A stretch of 64,000 nt of DNA, taken from NCBI GenBank assembly GCA_951406725.2, contig OX597824.1:69378001-69442000 (forward strand), in the 5' to 3' direction. Position 1 is the first letter of the stretch. Every line of letters begins with the position of its first letter. The notes below the pieces were generated by a model that was not told the DNA's origin, ran no database searches, and was given only the letters and a program-made list of their open reading frames with translations. The position numbers and the translations under genes were made by a program. Shown here one piece after another: positions 11,030-64,000 of this stretch. The stretch is from Octopus vulgaris. Its lineage: Eukaryota.

Positions 11030-11412
11030 TGGCGAGCAAATTTACTTTTTACATTCTTTACACTTGTGGCTCCGCTGGTGACTAATGAACCCAGCCCTTA
11101 ATAAACTTGGTAAACACACATGCGCAGATATGGCAGACCAAGTTTCTCCCTCTATTCCCATACGTTTTCAAGCAGCTAGTTTAAATTTTGTATCTCGCCA
11201 TAATGACTATAGCGAAAGAGGTGATATGGAAGACACGTGGAAGAGGCGTCGCATCAGGCATCTACGTCTCCGGGCATGCTTTAGTGAATCTCTTTTTATA
11301 TCACTTAACAGGGAAAGTATTTCTGGAGAGGAAATGCCTGACGGCAAAAAAGTTCGGGAGAAGATGGAAGAAAGTAGCCTGAATGCTGAGTATGTAAGGG
11401 CCAAATTAACGA
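11030..11412 (+). pseudogene. Degenerate Tx1/L1-clade LINE ORF2 C-terminal fragment
   Basis: ORF 11188-11382 (IAKEVIWKTRGRG...SGHALVNLFLYHLTGKVFLER...FGRRWKKVA) aligns to the end of the 51051-52355 ORF (MAKECIWWTRLKG...SGQSLINFFKYHLKRKVRVER...FKKRWVNVA). Confidence 0.75.
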
Positions 11413-11536
11413 TAACGATAAACGTCGCCCTTTTCAAGCCCATCCACGCTCATGGGCCCGGTTTCTCGGTTTCTGTGGTGTATGTGTTCCCTCTTATAAA
11501 AACACTCGCTGAAGTTGCCACACAATGGGGTCTATA

Positions 11537-11760
11537 CCTATTTCTTTACTACCCACAAGGGGCTAAACACAGAGAGGACAGACAAACGGATTAAGTCGAT
11601 TATATCGACCCAAGTGCGTAACTGGTACTTAATTTATAGACCCCGAAAGGATGAAAGACAAAGTTGACCTCGGCGGAATTTGAACTCAGAACGTAACGGT
11701 GGACGAAATACGGCTACGCATTTCGCCCGGCGTGCTAACGTTTCTGCCAGCTCGCCGCCT
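11537..11760 (-). mobile_element. tRNA-derived SINE family A (head GGCGGCGAGCTGGCAGAAACGTTAGC; tail TTTAGCCCCTTGTGGGTAGTAAAGAAA)
   Basis: Full-length match to the copies at 13152, 17457, 31335, 31958 and 50389. Confidence 0.85.
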
Positions 11761-11981
11761 ATACCGAAACCTCAATTGTATTAATACCAATTTCTTAACC
11801 ACTTTGCTATATCTGCATGAGTGAGTGTGTATGTGTGTATGTATGAGTGTGTGGTGTGTGTTTGTGTGCGTGTTTGTGTGTGTGTGTTTGTGCATGTGTG
11901 TGTGTATGAGTGTGTTTATGAGTGTGTGTATGTGTATGTGCGTGTGTGTGTTTCAGTGTGTACATATGTATTTATACCTAT

Positions 11982-12365
11982 GGAAGCACTCCGTCGGTTA
12001 CGACGATGAGGGTTCCGGTTGATCCGATCAACGGAACAGCCTGCTCGTGAAATTAACGTGTAAGTGGCTGAGCACTCCACAGACACGTGCACCCTTAACG
12101 TAGTTCTCGGAGATTTTCAGCGTGACACAGAGAGTGACAAGGCCGGCCCCTTGAAATACAGGTACAACAGAAACAGGAAGTAAGAGTGAGAGAAAGTTGT
12201 GGTGAAAGAGTACAGCAGGGATCACCACCATCCCCTGCCGGAGCCTCGTGGAGCTTTTAGGTGTATTCGCTCAATAAACACTCACAACGCCCGGTCTGGG
12301 AATCGAAACCGCGATCCTATGACCGCGAGTCCGCTGCCCTAACCACTGGGCCATTGCGCCTCCAC
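11982..12365 (-). mobile_element. tRNA-derived SINE family C
   Basis: Head (minus strand) GTGGAGGCGCAATGGCCCAGTGGTTAGGGC...GGTTTCGATTCCC; tail ...CCGACGGAGTGCTTCC. Confidence 0.85.
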
Positions 12366-12600: not shown

Positions 12601-12970
12601 GTGGAGGCGCAATGATCCAGTGGACTCGCGGTCGTAGGATCGCGGTTTCGATTCCCAGACCGGGCATTGTGAGTGTTTATTGAGCGAAAACACCTAAAGC
12701 TTCACAAGGCTCCTGCAGGGGGTGGTGGTGAACCCTGCTGTACTCTTTCACCACAACTTTCTCTCACTCTTTCTTCCTGTTTCTGTTGTACCTGTATTTC
12801 AAAGGGCCAGCCTTGTCACACTCTGTGTCACGCTGAATCTCCTCGAGAACTACGTTAAGGGTACACGTGTCTGTGGAATGCTCAGCCACTTGCACGTTAA
12901 TTTCACGAGCAAGCTGTTCCGTTGATCGTATCAGCTAGGACCCTCATCGTCGTAACCGACGGAGTGCTCC
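12601..12970 (+). mobile_element. SINE family C with TSD TACTAAAGAACA(GT)
   Basis: Homologous to 11982-12365 in opposite orientation. Direct repeat at 12589-12600 and 12973-12984. Confidence 0.85.
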
Positions 12971-13151
12971 TATACTAAAGAACAGTAACAACAATAACAA
13001 CAACAACAACGGTAACAACAATATTAACAACAACAATTATAGGAGCAATTACTATCACCAATTTGTCATCGACACAATAAATCAGCACGGAAGCCTCTAC
13101 GTGGTCGATGGAATTGAAAGAAAGCACAAGTAAAGATAGACACATTAGATA

Positions 13152-13386
13152 CTTATTTCTTTATTACCCACAAGGGGCTAAACACAGAGGGGACAAACAA
13201 GGACAGACATAGGTATTCAGTCGATTACGTCGACCCCAGTGCGTAACTGGTACTTAATTTATCGACCCCGAAAGGATGAAAGGCAAAGTCGACCTCGGCG
13301 GAATTCGAACTCACAACGTAACGGCAGACGAAATACCGCTAAGCATTTCGCCCGGCGTGTTAACGTTTCTGCCAGCTCGCCGCCTT
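13152..13386 (-). mobile_element. SINE family A
   Basis: Full-length copy, flanked by ACACATTAGATACT direct repeats. Confidence 0.85.
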
Positions 13387-17160: not shown

Positions 17161-17249
17161 CATTATTATTATTATTAATATTGTTATTATTATTATTATT
17201 ATTATTATTGTGGTGGTGGTGGTGGTGGTGGTGTTTGCTGGTATTACCA

Positions 17250-18225
17250 AGGCTTCGTACTCACGGAATCGTTAAAACGTCGGATGGAAAGCTTAGCGAT
17301 ATTTCGCCCGTCTTTTCGTTCAGAGTTCAAATTCCGTCCGGATTGACTTTCCTTTTCATCAAATTGGAATCGATAAAATAAATTCCCAGTTCAGCACTGA
17401 TATCAATGTAATTGACTAGCTCCGTAAATTGCAGACCTTGTAGAAAGGACTATTAAGGCGGCGAGCTGGCAGAAACGTTAGCACGCCGGGTGAAATGCGT
17501 AGCCGTATTTCGTCTGACGTTACGTTCTGAGTTCAAATTCTGCCGAGGTCGACTTTGCCTGTCATCCTTTCGGGGTTGATTAAATAATTACCAGTTACGC
17601 ACTGGGGTCGATATAATCGACTTAATCCGTTTGACTGTCCTTGATTGTCCCCTCTGTGTTTAGACCCTTGTGGGTAGTAAAGAAATAGGTATTTCGTCTG
17701 CAGCTACGTTCTGAGTTCAAATTCCACCGAGGTCGATTCTGCCTTTCATCCTTTGGAGGTCGATAAACTATGTTCCACTCACGCAGTGGGGTTGATCTAA
17801 TCGACTTTCTTCCTTCCCCAAATTTCAGGCCGTGCGCCTATAGTAGAAAGGATTCCATAACTTAAATGACCACCGACTTTGCTTTTCATCCTTTCGGTAT
17901 CGATAAATTAAGTACCACTTGTGTACTGGGGTCAATCTAATCGACTGCCGTCCCCCCTCCCCAAAAAAGTTTGGGCCTTGTACCTATAGTAGAAAAAGAT
18001 TATTTTTTAGGAGCTTCCAGAATTATTATCACACCGGGCGAAATGCTTGGCGGTATTTTGTCAGCCTTCACGTTCTGCTTCCAAATTCCGCCGAAGTCGA
18101 CTTTGCCTTTCATCCTATCGGGATCGATGAAATAAGTACCAGCTGAACACCGGGGTCGATGTAATCGATTTACCCCGTCCCTGCAATTTTCAGGCCTTGT
18201 GCCTATAGCAGAAATGATTATTTAG
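17250..18225 (+). mobile_element. Head-to-tail cluster of ~5 SINE family A copies and fragments
   Basis: Repeated GTTCAAATTCC...CTTTCATCCTTTCGGGGTCGATAAA blocks at ~17325, 17530, 17715, 17880 and 18080. The copy at 17457-17690 is full length. Confidence 0.8.
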
Positions 18226-19824: not shown

Positions 19825-20087
19825 TAAATATAAAAATAAATGCACCCTTTTAAAGCCTAGCCAAGTTCATGGGCCCGGTTTCCCGGTTTCTATGGCGTAT
19901 GTGTTCCCCAGCTGGATGGGACGCCAGTCCATCGCAGCGTTACACATTTTTGCCAGCTGAGTGAACTGGAGCAACGTGAAGTGAAGTGTTTTGCTCAAGA
20001 ACACAACGCATCGCCCGGTCCAGGAATCGAAACCACAATCTAACGATCATGATGCTGACACATAACCACTAAGCCACGCGCCTCCAC
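19825..20087 (-). mobile_element. tRNA-derived SINE family D with V-domain-like segment; 11-bp TSD
   Basis: Minus strand head GTGGAGGCGCGTGGCTTAGTGG..GGTTTCGATTCC and internal GCTGCGATGGACTGGCGTCCCATCCAG. TSD CTCAGGTTACA at 19812-19822 and 20087-20097. A tail fragment also occurs at ~11420-11490. Confidence 0.8.
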
Positions 20088-21061: not shown

Positions 21062-21552
21062 ATATGAAAACTCACAGCTTATTTTGCTGGGTATGATAGA
21101 AAGTATCGGCTGTCCACAGCCAGCAGATTAAGGTGACACTTGTTTACTGGTCATGCTTCAAGAACTCTGCGAAGAATTCTTGCGGTTCCAAGCAATACTG
21201 ATTTTTATAGGTATACTACCTTCATACTTGTTCAGATCTTTTTCAGCCATGTTGGTAATTGAGTGCTGATACTTCCAAGTGCACCAATTACTATTGGCAT
21301 TGCATCTACTCTCCTCTTTGACCACAACCTTCGTATTTCCCACTTCAAATCGTCATAGTTGTTCACTTTTATTTCTTTCACATTGTTGCTGTTGTCACCA
21401 GGGCATGCTATGTCGATTATGAGACATATTCTTTCATTTTTATTCACCTTAACAATATCCAGTTTCCGATGTCTGGTCGGGTGATCGCATAGATCATTCC
21501 ATCCCACAGGATTGTGCAATACTTATTTTCGGTGAACCCTTCTGGAATTTGC
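21062..21552 (-). pseudogene. R4/Dong-like non-LTR retrotransposon 3' fragment (RLE endonuclease)
   Basis: ORF 21232-21519: RKLDIVKVNKNERICLIIDIACPGD...YDDLKWEIRRLW...PIVIGALGSI (PD-(D/E)xK-type RLE). Short (TTA)n runs at both ends. Confidence 0.8.
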
Positions 21553-21866
21553 TTATTATTACCTCCGCGAATTTGAACTAAGAACGTAAAGACAGACGAA
21601 ATACCGCTAAGCATTTCACCCGGCGTACTAACGTTTCTGCCACCTCGCGGCCTTCTATCTATCTGTATTTAAAGTTAAATATATATATATATAACGTAAG
21701 GGGGATCAGCCATCTGAATGTGGCTAGGGACAGGGCGGGGTGGTGGGGGTGTTACTGATGCTTTTAGCCCCAGGCGATCATCAAAGTCACCAGAAGGACC
21801 GACACCATATCGGTGTCATTGTTAGCCTGTAAAGGGAGATCAGCCTCCCCGAAGATACGGATACTA

Positions 21867-26339: not shown

Positions 26340-27076
<737 letters not shown>

Positions 27077-27077
27077 A

Positions 27078-27131
<54 letters not shown>

Positions 27132-27133
<2 letters not shown>

Positions 27134-28548
27134 TTTTGCTCCGCTCGTCGTCCATAAAAAATTCTGTGTTTGCAATACTTTTTTTCGTTCGGCGTTAACA
27201 GCCCTTCTTATCTTGTTTTTCCTTGTCCTGTCTTTTACTGTTTACAATTTGTACTGTCGTTACTGTCCTGTTGTTACCATTTTTTACCCCTCTGCGAAAA
27301 GATCTCAGAATTTTAATTGATTTGCTTTTCGCAGGAAGGAAAGTTTTCTTGTCGAAGATACGTCTCGCTTTTATCCTTCGAAACGTAGAGTAGATGAAAC
27401 CTTTAGTGACTGAAGAAGGGGTTTGTTTCTTGTGTTAATTGTCCTGTACTCTATTTTTTTGTTGTTTTTAAAAAAATGTCCAGTTCCTTTGGTTTGTGTC
27501 TATGTTTTCGTTTCTCATTGTGTTCGACGTCCTTTTGGTGTCCTGTACTCATAAATGCGTGTATATGTACATGTAGAGGTAGGTACGTACATATATGTTT
27601 ATATATATGCATATGTTTTATTTTATTTATTAATATATTATTTGACAACGCACGCACCCCCTTAAGTAAGATTGTTCTATATATGAAGTTTTTGTTCTTG
27701 ATATTAACTTTGACGCGCACTCTTAACCTTTCTGTCCCATCCCTTTCTCAGCCTTCATTCTTTGATTTCCTTTTCCTCTACTTAACTTGTCTCTTCCTCT
27801 CTCTCATTCTTCACTCTCTCTCTCCCCCTCTCCATTCTTCTTGGTTTCCTCGCAGCCATTCCCCTTCTTCTCTCCCTTTCTCTTGCTCCTCCTCTCCCTT
27901 CCCGTCATTCACCCCCGACGTGACTTTCGCCTTCCCGTCGTTCACCCGCGACGTCACTTCTGCTGCTGTCGCTATCCCCTGGCTCTCTCAAGGTAATGGA
28001 CGACATTCTTTTTGCTCCGCTCGTCGTCCATAAAAAATTCTGTGTTTGCAATACTTTTTTTCGTTCGGCGTTAACAGCCCTTCTTATCTTGTTTTTCCTT
28101 GTCCTGTCTTTTACTGTTTACAATTTGTACTGTCGTTACTGTCCTGTTGTTACCATTTTTTACCCCTCTGCGAAAAGATCTCAGAATTTTAATTGATTTG
28201 CTTTTCGCAGGAAGGAAAGTTTTCTTGAAGATACGTCTCGCTTTTATCATTCGAAACGTAGAGTAGATGAAACCTTTAGCGACTGAAGAAGGGGTTTGTT
28301 CCTTGTGTTAATTGTCCTGTACTCTATTTTTTTTACTGTTTTTAAAAAAATGTCCAGTTCCTTTGGTTTGTGTCTATGTTTTCGTTTCTCATTGTGTTCG
28401 ACGTCCTTTTGGTGTCCTGTACTCATAAATGCGTGTATATGTACCTGTAGAGGTAGGTACGTACATATATGTTTATATATATGCATATGTTTTATTTTAT
28501 TTATTAATATATTATATGACAACGCACGCACCCCTTTAAGTAAGATTG
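27132..28548. mobile_element. Partial tandem element (~545-bp direct repeats, period 876 bp) in (TA)n; Penelope-like architecture
   Basis: 27132-27678 is nearly identical to 28008-28548; (TA)n on both outer flanks. Confidence 0.7.
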
Positions 28549-28776
28549 TATATATATATATTCCACCGATTTTATATTTACAGATATTTATTAGAATGTT
28601 ACATGATTTTATAAATCACATTATATATTAGCGCTTTCGTCCACTCAAGTGGAGTTTTCAAATTGAACTTTTGCTGGAATTTTGTCTCTTTTTATAGTAT
28701 TATTGAGTGTGTAGGGGTGGGGAGAGATATAAGATAGTACAAGAGGGTGAGGAATGGGGAGAAAGTGAGAGAGACC

Positions 28777-31334: not shown

Positions 31335-31565
31335 GGCGGCAAGTTGGCAGAATCCTTGGCCCGCCGGGCGAAATGCATAGCTGTATTTCGTCTGCCGTTA
31401 CGTTCTGAGTTCAAATTCCGCCGAGGTTGACTTTGCCTTTCATCTTTTCAGAGTCGATAAATTAAGTACCAGTTACGCACTGGGGTCAATGTAATCGACT
31501 TAATCCGTTTGTCTGTCCTTGTTTGTCCCCTCTCTGTTTAGCCCCTTTGTGGGTAGTAAAGAAAT
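31335..31565 (+). mobile_element. SINE family A
   Basis: Full length; TGCTGCTATTTTT direct repeats on both sides. Confidence 0.85.
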
Positions 31566-31957: not shown

Positions 31958-32190
31958 AGGCGACGAGCTGGCAGAAACGTTAGCACGCCGGGCGAAATGC
32001 TTAGCCGTATTTCGTCTGCCGCTACGTTCTGAGTTCAAATTCCGCCGAGGTCGACTTTGCTTTTCATTCTCTCGGGGTCGATTAAAGAAGTACCAGTTAC
32101 GCACTGGGGTTGATATAATCGATTTAATCCGTTTGTCTGTCCTTGTTTGTCCTCTCTATATTTAGCCCCTTGTGAGTAGTAAAGAAATAG
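31958..32190 (+). mobile_element. SINE family A
   Basis: Full-length match to the family. Confidence 0.85.
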
Positions 32191-33980: not shown

Positions 33981-34089
33981 CAACAATTCTTCTTTATTGA
34001 CCACTGAGGGTTTACACAAAGAACAGGATGATACATTACAATGTGGTATGATGTGGGGTTATATCAAGGTGTGTTAAAAATGGCTTGGT

Positions 34090-34392
34090 CCACCGTCGGT
34101 TACGACGACGGATGTTCCAGCAGATGCGATTATCAGAACTATCTGCTCGTGAAATTACTGTGGAAGTGGCTGAGCACTCCTCAGAAACGCGTACTCTTAA
34201 CCTAGTTCTCAGGGAGATTCAGCGTAAAGGCTGGCCCTTTGAATTAGAGGTCACTGCTCGTTATTGCCAGCTAAGTTGATTGGAGCTACGTGAAATACAG
34301 TGTCATGCTCAGGGACACAATGCGCCGCCAAGAATAGAACTCATGACCTTACGATCTTGAGCCAAATACCCTAACCACTAAACCACGCGCCT
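34090..34392 (-). mobile_element. Diverged copy of the SINE at 26754-27076
   Basis: CCGTCGGTTACGACGAC...CTAACCACTAAACCACGCGCC. Confidence 0.75.
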
Positions 34393-34419
34393 GTAAACAG
34401 CAAAAGGTATATAAACAAT

Positions 34420-34780
34420 AAAATAACGAAAACAAATAAAAAAAGTTAAAGTATTTCTCTAAATTGGAGGAGCCTTTTGATGGGGATTATTCTTAGAAAT
34501 CCCACAAAATCACAGACGCCTTGAATACTGGAGCAACTACCCTCTCCCGATCATTCACTCTTCTTCCTCTCTGAATCTACGGATGGATTCTCAGTGTAGG
34601 CCCATGCAATCGGACTAGCTTTGAGATATTCACCTGCCTCTCAACAAATTTGCAAGAATCCTCCAATCTGACAGTTCCAAATAAAATATGAGAAAGTTAA
34701 TGAGGGCATGGCCAAAGAGGAAGGTCTCTGTCTTCACCCTTTTCAATATGGTGCACCACATTCTTTCGCTAAGGCCCCCA
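34420..34780 (-). pseudogene. Degenerate Tx1-clade ORF2 C-terminus and 3' UTR
   Basis: Minus strand reads ALAKE/MWCTILKRVKTETFLFGHALINFLIFYL...KFVERQVNISKLVRLHGPTLRIHP*, which aligns to the end of ORF 51051-52355. Confidence 0.7.
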
Positions 34781-34882
34781 TACAGATAAACACCGACTCA
34801 TAGACTGCGGATCCCAGGCCATGACTGACAGACAGGAATAAATATCCTAGGGATCTAGACAGTGACTCATATAACCCTAGAT

Positions 34883-35454: not shown

Positions 35455-35673
35455 GGCGTAGGAGTGGCTGCGTGGTAAATAGCTCGCTTACCAACCATGT
35501 GGTTGGTAAGCGAGCTATTGGTTGGTAAGTGGGTTCAGTCCCACTGCGTGGCCTCTTGGGCAAATGTCTTCTACTATAGCCTCGAGCCGACCAAAGCCTC
35601 GTGAGTGGATGTAGTAAACGGAAACTGAAAGAAGCCCCTCGTATATATGTATGTATGTATATATATAGATATA

Positions 35674-35706
<33 letters not shown>

Positions 35707-35954
35707 ATGTATGTATATATATATGTATGTATGTAAGTATGTGTGTGTATATGTTTCTGTGTCTGTGTTTGTCCTCCTAATATCGCTTGACAACCGCTGC
35801 TGGTTTGTTTACGTCCCCGTAACTTAGCGGTTCGACAAAATAGACCGATAGAATAAGTACTAGGTTTACAAAGAATAAGTCCTGGAGTCGATTTGCTCAA
35901 TTAAAGGCGGTGCTCCAGCATGGCCACAGTCAAATGACTGAAACAAGTAAAAGA

Positions 35955-36074: not shown

Positions 36075-36214
36075 CAAACGACGTACTAAAAAAACCGTTA
36101 CTATTTGCCTAACTTCACTAGTGTCACATGTACCATATGGGTGTTTTTTCTGCCGCATCACGCATTTATTTCGTCTCTAGAAATAGTTTCCACATTCGTA
36201 TTAATTACAATTTT

Positions 36215-37295
36215 TGACACATGGCCAACAGTTTTGGGTGATGGTTAAGTCGATTCCATCGACCCCAGTCTCCAACTGATACTTCCCCGAAAGAAGGATG
36301 AAAGGCAAAGTTTACCTCGGCGGATTTTGAAATCTGAACGTAAAGACGGACGAAATGCCGTTAAGCATTTCGCCCGACCTGATATCGATTCTGCAGAATT
36401 TTCGCATTAATAGTGACATCGATTTCTATTAAATATACAAGCTTTATCTTCAAGGAATTTAAATTGAGTTTATAAGTCACATTGCAAATTCTGTTAATAT
36501 CTGTAAATTAATAAAAATTCCCATTTCCAGTATAATAATCTACTAAAGTCACAAAGCATGTAATTTGTCAGGAAACGGCTATTTAATTGCGTTGCCCCAG
36601 TGATCAATGGGTAGTTGTTTCATCGACCCAGAAAGAATGAAAAGAAAGTCGACCTCGGCGGAATTCGAACTCAGAGCATAAGGCTGAAAGAAATGCCGCT
36701 AAGCATCTTGTCTGGAACGCTAACGATTGTGCCAGCTCGTCAGCATTTTTCACCATTTTGTTTATATCTAAAATGAAAATTCACCTTGAGATTCAAAGTG
36801 TTTACAAGCCAGTTAGTCCCTCTTCAGAACCTACTACTTGCTGAGTATCAAAGGTTCAGTTAGCGGAAGGGCATCATGTATGGTGTTAATGAAAATGATG
36901 GTGCTCCGACCGTTGCTGTTGATCGGGAGATGTGAGTGCTATCTTGAATAGCTCAAATAAAACACGGGCTACAGCTTGACCAAAATTAGCTGTGTCTTGG
37001 GTGAGGATGTCTGATCAATGATGATGTTTCGAAATGCATCACGGGACGATATAATTGTGCATCACATATACTAGCATATTGATTTCAAGTTTTGGCACAA
37101 AGCCAGCAACTTCGGTGGCGGGGGCGGAGTAAGTCGATTACATCGACCCCAGTGTTCGAATGGTATATGTTTTTATCGACCTCAGTGCTTAACTGATATT
37201 TGCTTTATCGATCCCGAAAGGATGAAAGAAAAAAGCCGATCCCAGAAAGTAAAAACATGAAATGCCGCTAAGCGTTACTCCGGTGTAGTAACGAT
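36215..37295 (-). mobile_element. Three diverged SINE family A-related copies (~36215-36395, 36560-36740, 37090-37295)
   Basis: Each has ATCGACCCC..GAAAGGATGAAAGG and GAAATGCCGCTAAGC blocks. Confidence 0.7.
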
Positions 37296-38226
37296 TGCAC
37301 CAGCTCGCCGCCCTAAAAACATATCAAAATATTAAAAATGTTAAAATTCATATAATATCTGTTTATAGTAGGTCTTTTTCCGAATAAATCACTTGCAAAC
37401 CCATAAAGATTTTGAAATTTAGAGGTTTTGTTTTACAATTTCATAATTAATTACCAACGATTTAATTTCTTTCCATATACAGAGTTCCCTAAAGTGGTTA
37501 TTTACGACAAACATCAAATTTTTCATCTCGTTTGACGACCTGTATTTAATGTAACTTCGACGTGACTGTCAACTTTTAAAAACATGAATATTTAACTTTG
37601 CTTCACAAACTGAGTTCTATATAAAGTTAATGATTTTTTTTTGTGTGTTTATATAACTGTGAGAATGTGTGTGTGTGTGTGTGTGTGCGCGCGCGCGCGC
37701 GTGTTCCATTGTGTGTGTGTGTGTGTGTGTGGTTATTTGGGTGTGTTTGTGTGTGTATGTAACTGTGTATGTGTGTGACAACTCGTTGATTTATCTATTT
37801 ATCGATCGATCGATCGATCAGGTAAATCATTCAAACTCTTTATCCTTTATCTTATTTTTTTTCTTATCCTTTAATCTATTTAAATCCCCATCTCCGCCAT
37901 TCCCACCATCGCCATTCCCACCACCGCCATTCCAACATCACCAACATCAACAAGCAGAACAACATTAGCACCATAAACGTCACAACCACCGACAACACTA
38001 ACACCAACACCGCGACTGCTCTTACTTCCCACAACCATCATTACTACAACCTGTACTGTAAGCAATGACTTCACCTCCAGCATTGGCAACATCAATACGA
38101 CCACCAGCGCCACTGCTCACCTGGTGGTAACTTCTAACTACGATTACATGCCCTTTAGCAAGCAAGACATTAACATATGTTGTGGTATCTTAACGAAACC
38201 CCGAAACAATGAAGGTGTGTGTGTGA

Positions 38227-41555: not shown

Positions 41556-42330
41556 TGTCACGATAGATCACATACACGGTGTACGCAAAAAAAAACATAA
41601 GTGGACGATACACTTATTGATGTCATGAAACAGCAAAGCTAGAGAGAAGTTGCGGAGTAGGCCGACGTACCTTGAAATTTTGGATGAAAAAGGACATGTG
41701 TCCCAATGTCCGAAAATAAACTAATGGACCAAGTGAGAGTGATTAGGAGTTACTATGTATATATATTCTGTTCTTTTATTCTTATATGTGTTTCAGTCAT
41801 TTGACTGCGGCCACCTTTAGTCAAACAAATCGACCACGTAACTTATTCCTTGTATATACACCGCCGGAAGTTGTTCTTGACAAAGAACAGCAGTAATTTT
41901 ATTCAGCTGAATACACGTCATTGATTGGTTGAAATTACCGAAATACGACAACTTTAACAAAAAATAACTTCCAAAACACAGAATTTTCTCAACAACGCTA
42001 AGAGTAAAAGATGTTTTATGTGGCACATTCTACCAGTATACGAAGTTTGAAAGTGTTTTGTTACAAAAAGTTATTTTAAAAATCTGTCGGTCAAAAGGTA
42101 AAGATCCTGTTTCTTCTCCAAGTTTCCCTTTAAGTAGGTTAGTGCAGCTACGCTTGTGTCATACGGCACAGCTATAAATTGAAAGTGCCTACGCAGGAGA
42201 ACTTCACCTACTCTTAAAACGCTATTGTTTTCACTGTTGAGTACACACGTGACGTACTCATTTTTCAATTTGTTTAGTGTGGGCGATACGATCTAGCATT
42301 CAAAGACTACGTAGTATTCATTTAGTCTTT

Positions 42331-42717
42331 CTTTTATTCTTTTACTTGTTTCAGTCATTTGACTGCGGCCATGCTGGAGCACCGCCTTTAGTCGAGCAAA
42401 TCGACCTCAGGACTTATTCTTTGCAAGCCTAGTACTTATTCGATGGATTTCTTTTGCCGAAAAGCTAAGTTACAAGGACATAAACAGGCTAGCAGCGGTT
42501 GTCAAGCTATGTTAGGTAGACAAATACAGACACACACGCATACATACATACATACGATGGGCTTCTTTCAGTTTCCGTCTACCAAATCCACTCACAAGGC
42601 TTTGGTCGGCCCGAGGTTATAATAGAAAACACTTGCCCAAGGCGCCACGCAGTGGGACTGAACTCAGAACCATGTGGTTGGTTAGCAAGCTACTTACCAC
42701 ACAGCCACTCCTGCGCC
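42331..42717 (-). mobile_element. SINE family B, full length
   Basis: Reverse-complement match to 35455-35956. Confidence 0.85.
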
Positions 42718-50388: not shown

Positions 50389-50623
50389 GGGCGGCGAGCT
50401 GGCAGAATCGTTAGCATGCCGGGCGAAGTGCTTAGCGGTATTTCATCTGCCGTTACGTTCTGAGTTCAAACTCCGCCGCCGAGGTCGACATTGCATTTCG
50501 TCCTTTTGGGGTCGATTAAATAAATACCAGTTAAGCACTGGAATCGATATAATCAACTTAAACCCTTTGTCTGTCATTGTTTGTCCCCTCTATGTTTAGC
50601 CCCCTGTGGTCAACAAAGAAATA
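50389..50623 (+). mobile_element. SINE family A with degenerate 17-bp TSD
   Basis: AATATTTATAGAGAACA (50372-50388) versus AATATTTACAGAGTACA (50624-50640). Confidence 0.85.
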
Positions 50624-50950: not shown

Positions 50951-51035
<85 letters not shown>

Positions 51036-51036
<1 letters not shown>

Positions 51037-52724
51037 AAAACTACGAAGCGGTGACAGGAGCGAAATTCAACCGGGAAAAGTCAGTGGGCTTGCGACTAGG
51101 CACCTGGAGAAGCAAGCCCATGCCGTCCACCAGCGCCTCCGTCGTGGGACGCTGGACCGACGGCCCGGTTGAGTTGCTCGGGGTCTGGTTTGGTCCGGAC
51201 CTCCAAGTGGAGAAGAACTGGAACGAGATAACGAGTAGGGTGGTCACTCTCGCCCGGCAATGGGCCGAGAGGAAACTGTCCCTAAAAGGTCGGGCGGAGG
51301 TGGCGAACACGTACATCGCGTCCGTCATCTACTACCGCCTGACTGTCGTACCTTGTCCCGACCCTACCATCACCAAACTACAACGCATTCTCTTTCGCTT
51401 CTTGTGGAAAGGATGCGTCCCGATGGTCAGGCGATCCATTTGCTGTCAACACCCGTTAAAAGGAGGGCTGGGCATGCCGTGGTTGATGATGCGCAGACAC
51501 GCGCTGAGACTGCGACATCTCTGGCTCTATGTAGACGACGGTGAACAGGTGTGGTCGCCGTTTGTGAGGCACGCTTTCTCGCAGCTCGTCTCCATGTCCG
51601 AACTGCAGTCGTGGATCAAAAAGAGGCCGAAGAAGGGCGAATGGCACCGCGAGTGTCGCGTTGCTCTCAAGCAACTCTGCCGTCCTGGGTCGACCTTGAG
51701 TGACTTCAACACAACCAAAGCATTCTATAGGGGTTTAGTGGAGGGGAGGTACGACGACGAGCTCGGGGCGAACCTGGACGTCGACGAGGAGTACCTGACC
51801 CGCCTGTTCAGGACGACTTTCGGGCCAGGGCCCATGGACAACTTCCAGAGATCCCTGGCCTGGCAGTGCTACCGAGAAGCGCTACCCGTTCGGAATAAGC
51901 TCTACAGACACGGCTCGAGAAACACGGGGCCGACCTGCCCGAGATGCGGTCAGAGCGACGAAACCGTTCTGCACGCACTCGTGCAGTGTCCAACAATTTC
52001 CGACCTGTGGGCTTGTGTCGAACAACTGCTGTCACGTGTGGGACGAGTCGGTTTATCAGCCGAGTCTATCGTCAATATTGTCACGCCTCCCTCCTTCAAA
52101 CGGGAAGGAAGAGCTATTTTCATCATCCTTGTGGCTATGGCGAAAGAATGTATCTGGTGGACGCGTCTGAAAGGATTGGAGACAAACACTTTCCTCTCTG
52201 GTCAATCTCTCATCAACTTCTTCAAGTACCACTTGAAAAGGAAAGTGAGAGTAGAGAGGCAAGTTTTGTCTAGCGAATGTTTTAAAAAAAGATGGGTGAA
52301 TGTAGCAAGAATGGCACGTATGAATGACGAAGCCACCTTGAGCATGATCCTATGAACCCAGAAATTGAAAACAGAGAGTTGCTTATTTGCAAAAAAAAAA
52401 AAATATATAACATGTGACTCCATTGACCGAGGTTACCGTGGTCTTTTCCGTAGGCTTTTCTTTCCACGGGTAAACCTCACCTGTCCTCCCCTTTACACTT
52501 CATATTGACATTTCTGTGATAACGATCCCTATTGATCAATTTTTTTTTTTCTCTCCCCCTTTTTTTTTAACCCCCCTTTTTTTTGTCCTCTTTCTCTCCT
52601 TTTACGATATCCCTTTTGATCGAAACTCCCCCTTCCTTTTTTTTTTTTTAAACCTTCAAAAGAAAAGCTCTACCTTGTAATTTGTTCTATCTGTGTGCAG
52701 CCCTGTGTGGCTAATAAAGAAACA

Positions 52725-52727
<3 letters not shown>
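51036..52727 (+). mobile_element. 5'-truncated Tx1-clade (L1 group) LINE inserted in (TCTA)n
   Basis: Uninterrupted ORF2 end followed by a T-rich 3' UTR ending GCAGCCCTGTGTGGCTAATAAAGAAACA; (TCTA)n on both sides. Confidence 0.9.
51051..52355 (+). CDS. Tx1-type ORF2 C-terminal portion (end of RT, thumb, CCHC zinc knuckle); 5'-truncated, no true start
   Basis: TGAKFNREKS, LLGVWFG, RKLSLKGRAEVAN, FLWKG, PLKGGLGMP and CPRCGQSDETVLHALVQC (CX2CX7HX4C). Confidence 0.88.
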   Translation: MTGAKFNREKSVGLRLGTWRSKPMPSTSASVVGRWTDGPVELLGVWFGPDLQVEKNWNEITSRVVTLARQWAERKLSLKGRAEVANTYIASVIYYRLTVVPCPDPTITKLQRILFRFLWKGCVPMVRRSICCQHPLKGGLGMPWLMMRRHALRLRHLWLYVDDGEQVWSPFVRHAFSQLVSMSELQSWIKKRPKKGEWHRECRVALKQLCRPGSTLSDFNTTKAFYRGLVEGRYDDELGANLDVDEEYLTRLFRTTFGPGPMDNFQRSLAWQCYREALPVRNKLYRHGSRNTGPTCPRCGQSDETVLHALVQCPTISDLWACVEQLLSRVGRVGLSAESIVNIVTPPSFKREGRAIFIILVAMAKECIWWTRLKGLETNTFLSGQSLINFFKYHLKRKVRVERQVLSSECFKKRWVNVARMARMNDEATLSMIL

Positions 52728-52794
<67 letters not shown>

Positions 52795-53147
52795 CGGGTA
52801 AACCTTACTTGCTTTCCCCTTTACACCATATATCATAACACTGTGATACACGATCCCTATTGATCGTTTTTTTCCCTCTTCCCCTTTTTTTCCCTTTTTT
52901 TCTTCTTTTTTCATTTCTCTTTTCTTTTGTTCCTTTTCCTTTTCATCTTTTTTTATTTTTATCTTTTTATTATTTATTTTATCTTTTTTGTTCTTTTCTT
53001 CCCTTTTACGATCCCTCTTGATCGAAAACCTACGCCACCCCTTTTTTTGTTTCTTTTGTTTTTTGTTTTTTCCATCCCCCAAAAGGAAAGCTCTACCTTG
53101 TAACTTGTCCCATCTGTGTGCAGCCCTGTGTGGCCAATAAAGAAACG

Positions 53148-53148
<1 letters not shown>
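52795..53148 (+). mobile_element. Second, diverged Tx1 3'-UTR-only copy in the same (TCTA)n array
   Basis: ACGGGTAAACCT...CGATCCCTATTGATC...AAAGCTCTACCTTGTAA...GCAGCCCTGTGTGGCCAATAAAGAAACG aligns to 52466-52727. Confidence 0.85.
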
Positions 53149-53208
<60 letters not shown>

Positions 53209-53223
53209 GTCTGTCTGTCTATC

Positions 53224-53311
<88 letters not shown>

Positions 53312-54733: not shown

Positions 54734-55061
54734 GGAGCACTTCGTCAGTTGCGACGACGAGGGTCCCAGCTGATACGATCAACGGAACAGCTTGCTCGTG
54801 AAATTAACGTGCATGTGGCTGAGCACTCCACAAACACGTGTACCCTTAACGTTGTTCTCGAAGAGATTCAGCGTGACACAGAGTTGTGACAAGGCTGATC
54901 CTTTGAAATAAAGTTACTACTCATTTTTGCCAGCTGAGTGGACTGGAGCAACGTGAAATAAAGTGTGAAGGCGCGTGGTTTAGTGGTTAGGAGCATTCGG
55001 CTCATGATCGTAATGTCGTGAGTTCAATCCCCGGCGGCGCGTTGTGTCCTTCAGCAAGACA
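54734..55061. mobile_element. SINE with an inverted 5' head
   Basis: Body on minus (54734-54966) is joined directly to its own tRNA head on plus (54967-55061). Confidence 0.85.
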
Positions 55062-57404: not shown

Positions 57405-57713
<309 letters not shown>

Positions 57714-62598: not shown

Positions 62599-63720
62599 TA
62601 TGTAAAAAAGTGACGTGGAACCATTATTGAAACATGCGAAGATGGCTGACGTCATTAAAACTGAGAATTATGTAAAGAAAGAAAAATTTATAGAGCAAAA
62701 GAACACGAAAAAATAAACAGTATGGAAGGAAAAAATGTACGATCAGTTTGCAAGAGATACAAACACCAAGATAGGTTCAGAATACCGGTAGCTATGGACG
62801 AGGAGGAGAGACCTGAAGATAGAGACAGAGGCGCTTATATGCGCAGCTCAAGAACAAGTGTTAGGGACCAACTATATGAAGTGCAGAATCGACAACACTA
62901 CCGGCAGCGACAAATGCAAAACGTGTGGTGAAAGGGGTGAAACGGTACGGCACATCGTTAGCGAATGCCAAAATTAGCACAACGCGAATACAAAAGACGA
63001 CATGACAATGTAGTAAGAATGATCCATTGGGTGCACTGGGGAAGTCACAGCCAACAAAGAGCAAAGACGTGGTATAAAAAACTCCAGAAGGAGTCACCGA
63101 TAATGAAAATTACAAAATCCTGTGGGATGCAATGATCCAGTACGATCACCTGATCAGACATTGGAAACTGGACATTGTTGTGGTGAATAAAAAAGAAAGA
63201 ATATGTATGATAATCGGCATAGCATGCTCTGGTGACAACAGGATCAAGGTGAAAGAAGAGGAAAAAATGGACAATTATGACGATTTGAAGTGGGAAATGC
63301 GAAGGTTTTGGTCAATGAAGAGAGTAGACGTGATACCAACAGTAATTGGTGCACTTGGAAGTATCAGCACTCAACTACCAATATGACACAAAAAGATTGC
63401 TACAAGTTTAGAAAGTAGAACACCTACAAAAATAAGCTTTTTCCTGGAACAGAAAGAAATATGTTAGAGAAATCGGAATTGACATGAGAGCAGAGGGAGC
63501 CCAAAAAGCTGCGCTGCTGGGGAAGGCTAGGATTTTGATATTGGTACTTGGATGTTGAATGTCTTCTATGATAATTAACATACAATAATCAAAGCTTATA
63601 ATGTGCGGAAAGAGACCTTATGAGTCCTCTGGCAAGAGGCTGCTGTCCGCTCTCACAGAATCAACCACAGCAAACAAGACCGAGTACTCTGAGAAGTAAA
63701 ACAACCACAACAACAACAAT
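62598..63720 (+). pseudogene. R4/Dong-like LINE 3' region (CCHC, RHD, RLE), frameshifted
   Basis: DKCKTCGERGETVRHIVSEC, YKRRHDNV, ILWDAMIQYDHLIRHWKLDIVVVNKK...VIGALGSI. Starts right after (TAA)n at 62521-62597. Confidence 0.88.
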
Positions 63721-63734
63721 AATAGTGTTAATAT

Positions 63735-64000
63735 TTTCTTTATTGGCCACAAGGACCGAACACAAAACAAAAAGGATTATATAAAAACAAAGGACAAGTG
63801 GAGCCTAACACAAAAGTATATGCAAGCAATAGCAAAAACCTTAAAACTCCCCACAAGGTGGGGGCGATTCCAGCCGAGGCAACCAAGGAATCCAACACAT
63901 CCTGGTGCCCCCAATCTCTAACGGCATCACAGGCAGGCACCCCTATTCACTCTATCCTATCTGGATGACAAGCGCATGTTTAGAGTAGGCTCATTCACAC
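63735..64000 (-). mobile_element. Tx1-clade LINE 3' end (runs off the window)
   Basis: Minus strand VNEPTLNMRLSSR* (compare MNDEATLSMIL*), then a 3' UTR ending TGTGGCCAATAAAGAAA. Confidence 0.7.

What the first reader, a model, noticed from the sequence alone, without database searches (positions are those of the whole stretch)
53105..53145. The commonest SINE (family A) shares its 3' tail with the Tx1 LINE
Seen: LINE end TTGTCCCATCTGTGTGCAGCCCTGTGTGGCCAATAAAGAAA versus the family A tail TTGTCCCCTCTGTGTTTAGCCCCTTGTGGGTAGTAAAGAAA (by-eye consensus of the window's copies): 33 of 41 identical, ungapped. Both can form a small GCC(C)/GG(C/G)T stem-loop before the A-rich end. The Tx1 end at 63735 has the same terminus. 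Established: SINEs borrow the 3' end of the partner LINE that mobilises them, usually CR1, L2 or RTE. Tx1-clade partners are seldom reported. Inference: a stringent Tx1-SINE pair.
Basis: partly seen in the sequence, partly recalled or inferred. Interest (0 to 1): 0.7.

Follow-up and report, generated by a model that had tools for sequence, protein, structure and literature searches.

The report
Octopus SINE borrows a Tx1-like tail
A short octopus jumping element ends in the same roughly 45-base tail as several L1/Tx1-type retrotransposons beside it, so it is likely copied by their enzyme through recognition of that tail, a partnership so far described mainly for other retrotransposon groups.

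Summary
The core observation holds. The majority tail of six full-length SINE-A copies matches 53105-53145 at 33 of 41 bases; no shuffled query exceeded 29 anywhere in the window. The match ends abruptly upstream. The tail is native to the LINE: three divergent L1/Tx1-group families (52722/53145, 63735, and a new one at 33989) end in it while the rest of their 3' UTRs has diverged, and a profile built from only the two distant LINE ends ranks all six SINE-A tails and both LINE1 ends next. Corrections: only 6 of 17 copies of this head/body group carry the tail, so it is not the commonest SINE; 63735 shares the last 17 bases but only 23 of 41; the hairpin is weak and without significant covariation; Tx1 rather than L1 could not be tested by a tree. 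LINE1 sits in (TATC)n arrays and SINE-A does not (0 of 6), so the actual partner is likely a sister family. The host is an octopod. Most likely mechanism: tail-dependent trans-mobilisation by a non-poly(A) L1/Tx1-group ORF2. My searches found no reported animal SINE with an L1/Tx1-derived tail; Repbase/Dfam were not checked.

The parts
53105..53145 (+). 3' tail of LINE1b, the stretch named in the finding; followed by CG and (TATC)n
52795..53145 (+). LINE1b: 5'-truncated, UTR-only copy of the LINE1 family, between two (TATC)n tracts
   Evidence: 215/247 aligned bases identical to LINE1a UTR; junctions
51036..52355 (+). LINE1a: 5'-truncated ORF2 remnant, 439 open codons, C-terminal zf-RVT (CCHC) finger; L1/Tx1 group
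52356..52722 (+). LINE1a 3' UTR (367 bp), ending in the shared tail 52682-52722
50951..51034 (+). (TATC)21 tract abutting the truncated 5' end of LINE1a; further tracts 52725-52792 and 53148-53311 follow the two 3' ends
63735..64000 (-). LINE2: last 13 codons of ORF2 plus about 220-bp 3' UTR ending in the tail; cut by the window end; abuts the repeat tail of an R4/Dong-like element on the + strand
   Evidence: C-terminal 12-mer scores 40 against close homologs, above all 3000 random window peptides
33989..34797 (-). LINE3: frameshifted ORF2 C-terminus (34797-34580) and 3' UTR interrupted by a family-C SINE (34093-34392), ending in the tail, followed by (TTG/TTA)n
   Evidence: HMM E 2.4e-05 and 0.013 at profile positions 366-396 and 408-431 of 433
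11185..11533 (+). LINE4: more distant ORF2 C-terminus of the same group; no shared tail seen (interrupted by SINE-A copy 11759)
   Evidence: HMM E 7e-18
50391..50621 (+). SINE-A copy; 17-bp TSD with 2 mismatches
13156..13385 (-). SINE-A copy; 17-bp exact flanking repeat
17457..17685 (+). SINE-A copy inside a tandem SINE array (17238-18225); no TSD found
31959..32187 (+). SINE-A copy; about 10-bp TSD read by eye from the printed flanks (the script picked a (TGA)n repeat instead)
31335..31564 (+). SINE-A copy; 16-bp TSD with 1 mismatch; 1-nt insertion in the loop
11541..11759 (-). SINE-A copy; 6-bp TSD; 10-nt deletion just upstream of the tail

Best explanation
SINE-A, a 230-base octopod element with Pol III-type A and B boxes, ends in the same 41-50-base tail as three divergent L1/Tx1-group LINE families, and it is likely copied by the ORF2 enzyme of one such family, which would recognise that tail (a predicted bulged hairpin) instead of a poly(A) tract. 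Shown: shared tail, its restriction to the extreme 3' end, its presence after three independent ORF2 C-termini, no poly(A) run after any of the ten ends, TSDs of 6-17 bp on 5 of 6 SINE copies. Inferred: the SINE captured the tail from such a LINE by template switching (its sister type B has another tail on the same head and body); Pol III transcripts carrying the tail are bound in trans by ORF2, whose APE endonuclease nicks at weakly preferred RTAT-like sites and primes reverse transcription. The direct partner is likely a sister of LINE1 with looser targeting, or LINE1 with targeting relaxed in trans, because LINE1 sits in (TATC)n arrays and SINE-A does not.
For: 33/41 against a null maximum of 29. 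Three sampled SINE-A tails score above all 500 shuffles against each of the four LINE ends and not against either R4/Dong-like end (68-488 of 500 shuffles as high). A 33-nt profile from LINE2+LINE3 alone ranks the 6 SINE-A tails and 2 LINE1 ends as hits 3-10, ahead of every other position of the window. Apart from pyrimidine-rich low-complexity matches, the three LINE UTRs share only their last 31-46 nt, and SINE-A matches them only there. Full-length relatives carry Exo_endo_phos + RVT_1 + zf-RVT in about 1150 aa; the nearest solved relative is human L1 ORF2p (E 7e-43, against 1e-22 for R2). 4 of 5 TSDs begin RRTAY (background 904 of 91085 positions) and RTAT follows 3 of 4 LINE ends within 1 nt. 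SINE-A copies are 4-11% from their majority and the LINE1a ORF is open for 439 codons, compatible with overlapping activity.
Against: 0 of 6 SINE-A copies lie in (TATC)n although both LINE1 copies do. The hairpin is weak (z from -2.3 to +0.35 on a window chosen after seeing the fold; z from -1.8 to +1.2 on 56 nt; alignment energy -0.03 kcal/mol) and covariation does not beat shuffles. The conserved LINE terminus holds AATAAA, which could be kept as a polyadenylation signal; SINE-A has AGTAAA in 4 of 6 copies. LINE4, of the same group, shows no such tail. The RRTAY motif was defined after looking. All evidence comes from one 64-kb window (6 SINE and 4 LINE ends); no other octopus DNA could be fetched (empty). 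RTE, CR1 and L2 ends of this genome were not available for comparison.
Confidence: 0.72

Rival explanations
1. The tail is a relic: SINE-A picked it up once from an L1/Tx1-group RNA, but the LINE keeps the motif as a 3' processing (AATAAA) signal and its ORF2 is relaxed, so the tail is not what licenses mobilisation.
For: AATAAA is invariant in all 4 LINE ends but changed in 5 of 6 SINE-A copies; fold and covariation are weak; SINE-A lacks the (TATC)n targeting of LINE1.
Against: Conservation extends 20 or more bases upstream of AATAAA (25/32 without the A-rich end); no poly(A) follows any of the ten ends, so poly(A)-primed relaxed mobilisation has no substrate here; the hexamer pairs in the predicted outer stem and the A-to-G and T-to-C changes keep pairing.
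Confidence: 0.13
2. The true partner is a LINE of another clade (L2, CR1 or RTE) elsewhere in the genome, and the L1/Tx1-like elements acquired or converged on a similar end.
For: All molluscan SINE partners in the papers read are CR1, CR1-Zenon, L2 or Nimb (PMC11481361, PMC4824008, PMC4758252); type-B tails carry a similar C(U/A)UGU-loop hairpin and resemble the LINE ends weakly, so the motif may be more widespread; RTE and CR1 outnumber L1-Tx1 in O. vulgaris (PMC13282606 supplement).
Against: Three divergent L1/Tx1-group families carry the motif right after their own ORF2 and UTR, which needs three captures or one very old one; no other stretch of the window reaches 24/41; the two R4/Dong-like ends do not match.
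Confidence: 0.07
3. The mechanism is as proposed but the LINE belongs to the L1 clade proper (or a separate invertebrate lineage), not to Tx1.
For: No named Tx1 protein appeared among the hits; O. vulgaris holds 60 L1 families beside 80 L1-Tx1 families (PMC13282606 supplement).
Against: Insertion within a microsatellite at both ends matches the Tx1 families Kibi and Koshi (PMC4494074); only Tx1 and R1 among APE LINEs are described as site-specific (PMC13295347); recently active L1-group families in O. vulgaris are all L1-Tx1 (PMC13282606 Table 1).
Confidence: 0.2
4. Chance similarity of two T-rich/A-rich ends.
For: The last 9 bases are A-rich and the region is short.
Against: 0 of 1000 shuffles reach 33/41 or 25/32 anywhere in the window; the LINE-only profile result.
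Confidence: 0.01

Closest known systems
Stringent SINE/LINE pairs of the L1 clade in green plants: ZmSINE2/3 with LINE1-1_ZM, SINEX-3_CR with L1-1_CR (Ohshima 2012, PMC3472496; Ohshima 2013, PMC3747384)
   Same: L1-group LINE; about 45-50 conserved terminal nucleotides across LINE families and in the SINE; predicted hairpin.
   Different: Here an animal; no poly(A) or poly(T) end; microsatellite-associated LINE; compensatory changes not significant in this small sample.
SINEU with Tx1-Mar in crocodilians (Kojima 2015, PMC4494074)
   Same: A SINE inferred to be mobilised by a Tx1-group LINE; SINE target preference weaker than the LINE's (13-23% for SINEU-1 and -2).
   Different: SINEU has snRNA heads and poly(A) tails; the link rests on shared targets and 5' heads, and no LINE sharing the SINEU-1 3' end was found. 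Here the link is a shared 3' tail on a Pol III-type SINE.
Octopus CORE-SINEs OR1/OR2 (Ohshima and Okada 1994, seen only as cited in PMC4824008, PMC4758252, PMC5804259)
   Same: Abundant octopus tRNA-type SINEs with a central domain; that SINE-A and type B are these families is recalled and plausible, not tested.
   Different: No partner LINE for them is given in the passages read; their consensus sequences could not be obtained.
Kibi and Koshi, microsatellite-targeting Tx1 families (as described in PMC4494074)
   Same: LINE1 lies within a microsatellite at both junctions.
   Different: The repeat here is (TATC)n; Kibi and Koshi use (TC)n and (TTC)n, crocodilian relatives (TTCC)n or (TTTC)n.
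CR1-, L2-, Nimb-partnered molluscan HCD SINEs (PMC11481361, PMC4824008, PMC4758252)
   Same: One head and body with exchangeable LINE-derived tails.
   Different: None of the partners reported there is L1 or Tx1.

Membership tests
L1 group of non-LTR retrotransposons (L1 + Tx1) | ORF2 with APE endonuclease, RT and C-terminal CCHC/zf-RVT finger | tested here: met
   zf-RVT in the window remnant; 15 of the 17 longer relatives carry PF03372 + PF00078, 12 of 17 all three domains; EN and RT are absent from the truncated window copy itself
L1 group of non-LTR retrotransposons (L1 + Tx1) | RT closer to L1 ORF2p than to other solved non-LTR RTs | tested here: met
   Argonauta homolog P0005: L1 ORF2p E 7e-43, R2 E 1e-22; CR1, L2 and RTE have no entry among the 10 hits
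Tx1 clade | RT phylogeny groups with Tx1L, Keno, Kibi, Koshi | not testable with these tools
   No named Tx1 reference among hits; cluster names unavailable
Tx1 clade | Target preference for a repeated sequence | tested here: inconclusive
   LINE1a and LINE1b have (TATC)n on both sides; LINE2 and LINE3 are followed by (TTA/TTG)n; too few copies
Tx1 clade | ORF1 with RRM/zinc-knuckle domains | not testable with these tools
   All window copies are 5'-truncated
tRNA-derived SINE | [quoted passage not shown] | tested here: met
   Pattern search: A box in 5 of 6, B box in 6 of 6 copies, about 64 nt apart
tRNA-derived SINE | Head homologous to a tRNA | tested here: inconclusive
   No ARAGORN gene and no Rfam tRNA hit on two copies; boxes only
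tRNA-derived SINE | Short, non-coding, dispersed, with TSDs | tested here: met
   219-231 bp, 6 copies, TSDs on 5 of 6
CORE-SINE (OR1/OR2) | About 60-bp CORE domain; identity to OR1/OR2 consensus | not testable with these tools
   No consensus available; resemblance is recalled only
Stringent SINE/LINE pair | SINE and LINE share the extreme 3' sequence | tested here: met
Stringent SINE/LINE pair | Conserved stem-loop with compensatory changes | tested here: inconclusive
   78 of 80 cells pair in the 8-pair consensus but no double change; 2 pairs with double changes in the inner stem, not above shuffles
Stringent SINE/LINE pair | Shared insertion signature and concurrent activity | tested here: inconclusive
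   RRTAY/RTAT at 4 of 5 SINE and 3 of 4 LINE junctions, but 0 of 6 SINE copies in (TATC)n
Stringent SINE/LINE pair | Tail needed for trans-mobilisation | not testable with these tools
   Needs a cell assay

The most novel reading that the evidence does not exclude
Octopod Tx1 retrotransposons form a poly(A)-free, stringent lineage whose ORF2 reads a conserved bulged 3' hairpin, and a major octopus SINE family (perhaps both tail types of it) expanded by capturing that hairpin: the first animal SINE with an L1/Tx1-derived tail, showing that stringent RNA recognition survives in the animal sister group of mammalian L1.
Probability: 0.4. Interest if true: 0.72.

Novelty: new variant of a known kind. 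Interest (0 to 1): 0.58.

Why it matters
A 2012 survey found only three SINEs with L1-clade tails among 58 SINE/LINE pairs, all in green plants or algae, and proposed that poly(A)-based relaxed recognition evolved from a stringent ancestor (PMC3472496). An animal L1/Tx1-group LINE with a conserved poly(A)-free tail, shared with a SINE, would extend that model to animals and give a 40-base RNA element and an ORF2 homologous to human L1 ORF2p with which to test how template specificity was lost. It would also name a driver for part of the SINE expansion that fills about 12% of the Octopus vulgaris genome and is mostly unclassified (PMC13282606).

Tried and rejected
Other octopod DNA: a protein-pattern scan and a tail-pattern scan of the bacterial/archaeal genome collection, hoping for host contamination, found nothing; plasmid and phage searches were empty. 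Viral and metagenome contigs stayed unchecked, so the 3' UTRs of the close homologs P0002-P0008 and P0052 were not seen. Names for cluster members could not be obtained, and two Atlas searches gave only generic RT clusters, so no Tx1-versus-L1 tree was built. Rfam matches over the window that were listed (150 of 354) are microsatellite-driven miRNA-type noise below gathering scores; no tRNA match for the SINE head. A Pfam scan of 130 open frames of 62 codons or more with under 20% simple repeat found no RT or endonuclease of another LINE clade, only zf-RVT in LINE1a and a weak nuclease-fold hit in the R4-like piece. RNAalifold on a right-justified ungapped 40-nt alignment gave no structure. 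Covariation tests of three candidate structures did not beat shuffles. R4/Dong-like ends were rejected as tail donors. Transfer from SINE to LINE was rejected as the main reading because three LINE families carry the tail. SINEBase supplements could not be read and one of two MetaSINE supplements was not searchable; both may hold OR1/OR2 consensus or partner data.

Full report
Setting. The window is repeat-rich eukaryotic DNA (17,597 of 64,000 bases masked as simple repeats). The protein of the LINE remnant has named relatives in Argonauta hians (62% identity), Octopus sinensis and O. bimaculoides (97% over a 37-residue piece), so the host is an octopod.

The observation. The stretch 53105-53145 is as quoted. 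An ungapped scan with it at 24 or more matches returned 8 places: itself, 52682-52722 (38/41) and six SINE ends (25-34/41). In 1000 dinucleotide shuffles the best score anywhere on either strand was 29; without the last nine A-rich bases the match is 25/32 against a null maximum of 24. Upstream, ungapped identity falls to 7/39; a 3-nt gap extends the shared part to about 50 nt. The similarity is real and confined to the extreme 3' end.

The quoted end belongs to LINE1b (52795-53145), a UTR-only copy with 215 of 247 aligned bases identical to the UTR of the ORF-bearing LINE1a. Seventeen copies share the SINE head and body (16, one more); 6 carry this tail (type A), 8 carry another (type B) and 3 are truncated or too decayed to tell. 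Family D has 8 pieces and family C 6-7. Type A is therefore not the commonest SINE, though it is the most homogeneous part of the commonest head/body group (4.4-10.5% from majority). The end at 63735 has the last 17 nt identical to LINE1b but only 23/41 against the SINE majority.

The LINE. LINE1a is 5'-truncated at 51036 and open for 439 codons to a stop at 52355, with a zf-RVT finger. Of 17 longer relatives, 15 carry Exo_endo_phos and RVT_1 and 12 carry all three domains in about 1150 residues. The Argonauta relative is nearest to human L1 ORF2p among solved structures (E 7e-43; R2 1e-22). This places it in the L1 group. Tx1 rather than L1 could not be tested: no named Tx1 sequence appeared. 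Indirect support: both junctions of LINE1a and LINE1b abut (TATC)n tracts, which cover only 936 bases of the window, as for the microsatellite-targeting Tx1 families Kibi and Koshi (PMC4494074); and 104 of 157 stored proteins carry DQSKAFD..D in the RT, which I recall as Tx1-like rather than vertebrate-L1-like (recalled, not tested).

The tail is native to the LINE group. A profile of close homologs over 3086 six-frame peptides found two further ORF2 C-termini: LINE3 (34797-34580, minus, frameshifted; E 2.4e-05 and 0.013) and LINE4 (11185-11379; E 7e-18). LINE2 at the window edge ends in a 12-residue piece that scores above all 3000 random window peptides against homolog C-termini. LINE1, LINE2 and LINE3 all end in the motif; LINE4 shows none. 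Between families the UTRs share only the last 31-46 nt apart from pyrimidine-rich low-complexity matches. A 33-nt profile built from LINE2 and LINE3 alone ranks the six SINE-A tails and the two LINE1 ends as hits 3-10 (13.8-23.5 bits; next hit 11.4). Three sampled A tails beat all 500 shuffles against each of the four LINE ends and fail against both R4/Dong-like ends; three sampled B tails give mixed, weaker scores (0-79 of 500 against LINE1 and LINE2, 251-471 against LINE3). No poly(A) tract follows any of the ten ends.

Structure. The last 34 nt fold into a small inner stem around a 4-6-nt loop ending in GU in 9 of 10 ends, usually on an outer UCU.UGU / A(U/C/G)A.AGA-type stem; z-scores are -2.3 to +0.35 on this window, chosen after the fold was seen, and -1.8 to +1.2 on 56 nt. 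The alignment consensus has 8 pairs with 78 of 80 cells paired, but energy near zero and no double change. Adding one B tail, the inner stem shows two pairs with double changes, not above shuffles (35 and 34 of 500 for the covariation score). The hairpin is plausible, not shown.

The SINE and its insertions. Type A is 219-231 bp, with an A box in 5 of 6 and a B box in 6 of 6 copies; ARAGORN and Rfam find no tRNA. Five of six copies have TSDs of 6-17 bp, one read by eye; most begin 2 nt after the terminal AAAGAAA. Four of five begin RRTAY in both flanks, against a 1% background (motif defined after looking), and RTAT follows 3 of 4 LINE ends. But 0 of 6 SINE-A copies lie in (TATC)n arrays. The direct partner is therefore likely a sister family with looser targeting, or targeting is relaxed in trans, as reported for SINEU-1 and -2 (PMC4494074).

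Mechanism. Shown: shared terminal tail, native to three L1/Tx1-group families, no poly(A), TPRT-like TSDs. Inferred: capture of the tail by template switching onto an existing head and body; Pol III transcription; binding of the tail by ORF2 in trans; nicking at RTAT-like sites and priming. Confidence 0.72. The main rival is that the motif is kept in the LINE as an AATAAA processing signal and is a relic in the SINE (0.13); a partner of another clade is unlikely (0.07) but could not be excluded genome-wide.

Comparison with what is known. Papers and what I saw: PMC4494074, parts 1-4 of 5 of the text; PMC3747384, passages and part 1 of 2 of the figures-and-tables section including Table 1, which lists L1 tails only for maize/sorghum and Chlamydomonas and no Tx1; PMC3472496, passages (three SINEs with L1 tails among 58); PMC13282606, part 1 of 3 and its one supplement (80 L1-Tx1 and 60 L1 families; 1279 of 1317 SINE families unclassified); PMC4758252, PMC4824008, PMC5804259, PMC8967140, PMC5203782, PMC3531059, PMC9115989, PMC13295347, passages; PMC10294476, passages and one section; PMC5786205 and PMC11481361, term searches with no occurrence of Tx1 or octopus. 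Ohshima and Okada 1994 was not seen, only cited. Ten library searches, of which I read the listings and the papers above, showed no report of an animal SINE with an L1- or Tx1-derived tail or of a partner for the octopus CORE-SINEs. The library lacks most subscription papers and Repbase, Dfam and SINEBase entries, where such a note could exist.

Verdict. A real SINE/LINE shared tail with an unusual partner group: a new variant of a known kind. Interest 0.58; the boldest reading (first animal SINE on a stringent, poly(A)-free Tx1 lineage) has probability about 0.4 and would deserve 0.72.

Noticed in passing
window 17238-18225, 36199-36739, 37076-37314, 57408-57610: Type-B SINEs share head and body with type A but end in a different tail with a GGC-YWTGT-GYC hairpin and (ATT)n; the loop matches that of SINE-A and LINE2 with swapped stem pairs. 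It may derive from another family of the same LINE group or from another clade; similarity scores were mixed.
   Followed up: partly
window 50951-53311: Two LINE1-family copies stacked in one (TATC)n array, with repeat on both sides of the 5'-truncated copy: a possible (TATC)n/(GATA)n-targeting family, a target not among those listed in the Tx1 paper read.
   Followed up: partly
window 17238-18225: Head-to-tail array of five SINE copies (B, A, truncated B, truncated B, B).
   Followed up: no
window 21100-21652 (-) and 63000-63700 (+): Two R4/Dong-like 3' fragments (label from recalled motifs; weak nuclease-fold Pfam hit). The first is joined to a SINE head and half body; the second meets LINE2 tail to tail.
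   Followed up: no
window 11979-12345, 12618-12974, 26756-27077, 34093-34392, 54736-55058, 19941-20087: Family C, another tRNA-like SINE (6-7 copies); one copy interrupts the LINE3 3' UTR, so it is younger than that insertion.
   Followed up: no
window 35455-35954, 42319-42717 and six further pieces: Family D, a tRNA-like SINE with a microsatellite between its two halves.
   Followed up: no
window 11185-11759: A SINE-A copy inserted in opposite orientation just after the ORF2 C-terminus of LINE4, a more distant family without a visible shared tail.
   Followed up: partly
window 27132-27684 and 28008-28559: A direct repeat of about 550 bp, not examined.
   Followed up: no
protein P0004: A 63% identical relative is deposited as a Herbaspirillum MAG protein on a 1.8-kb contig, probably animal DNA contaminating a bacterial bin.
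   Followed up: no
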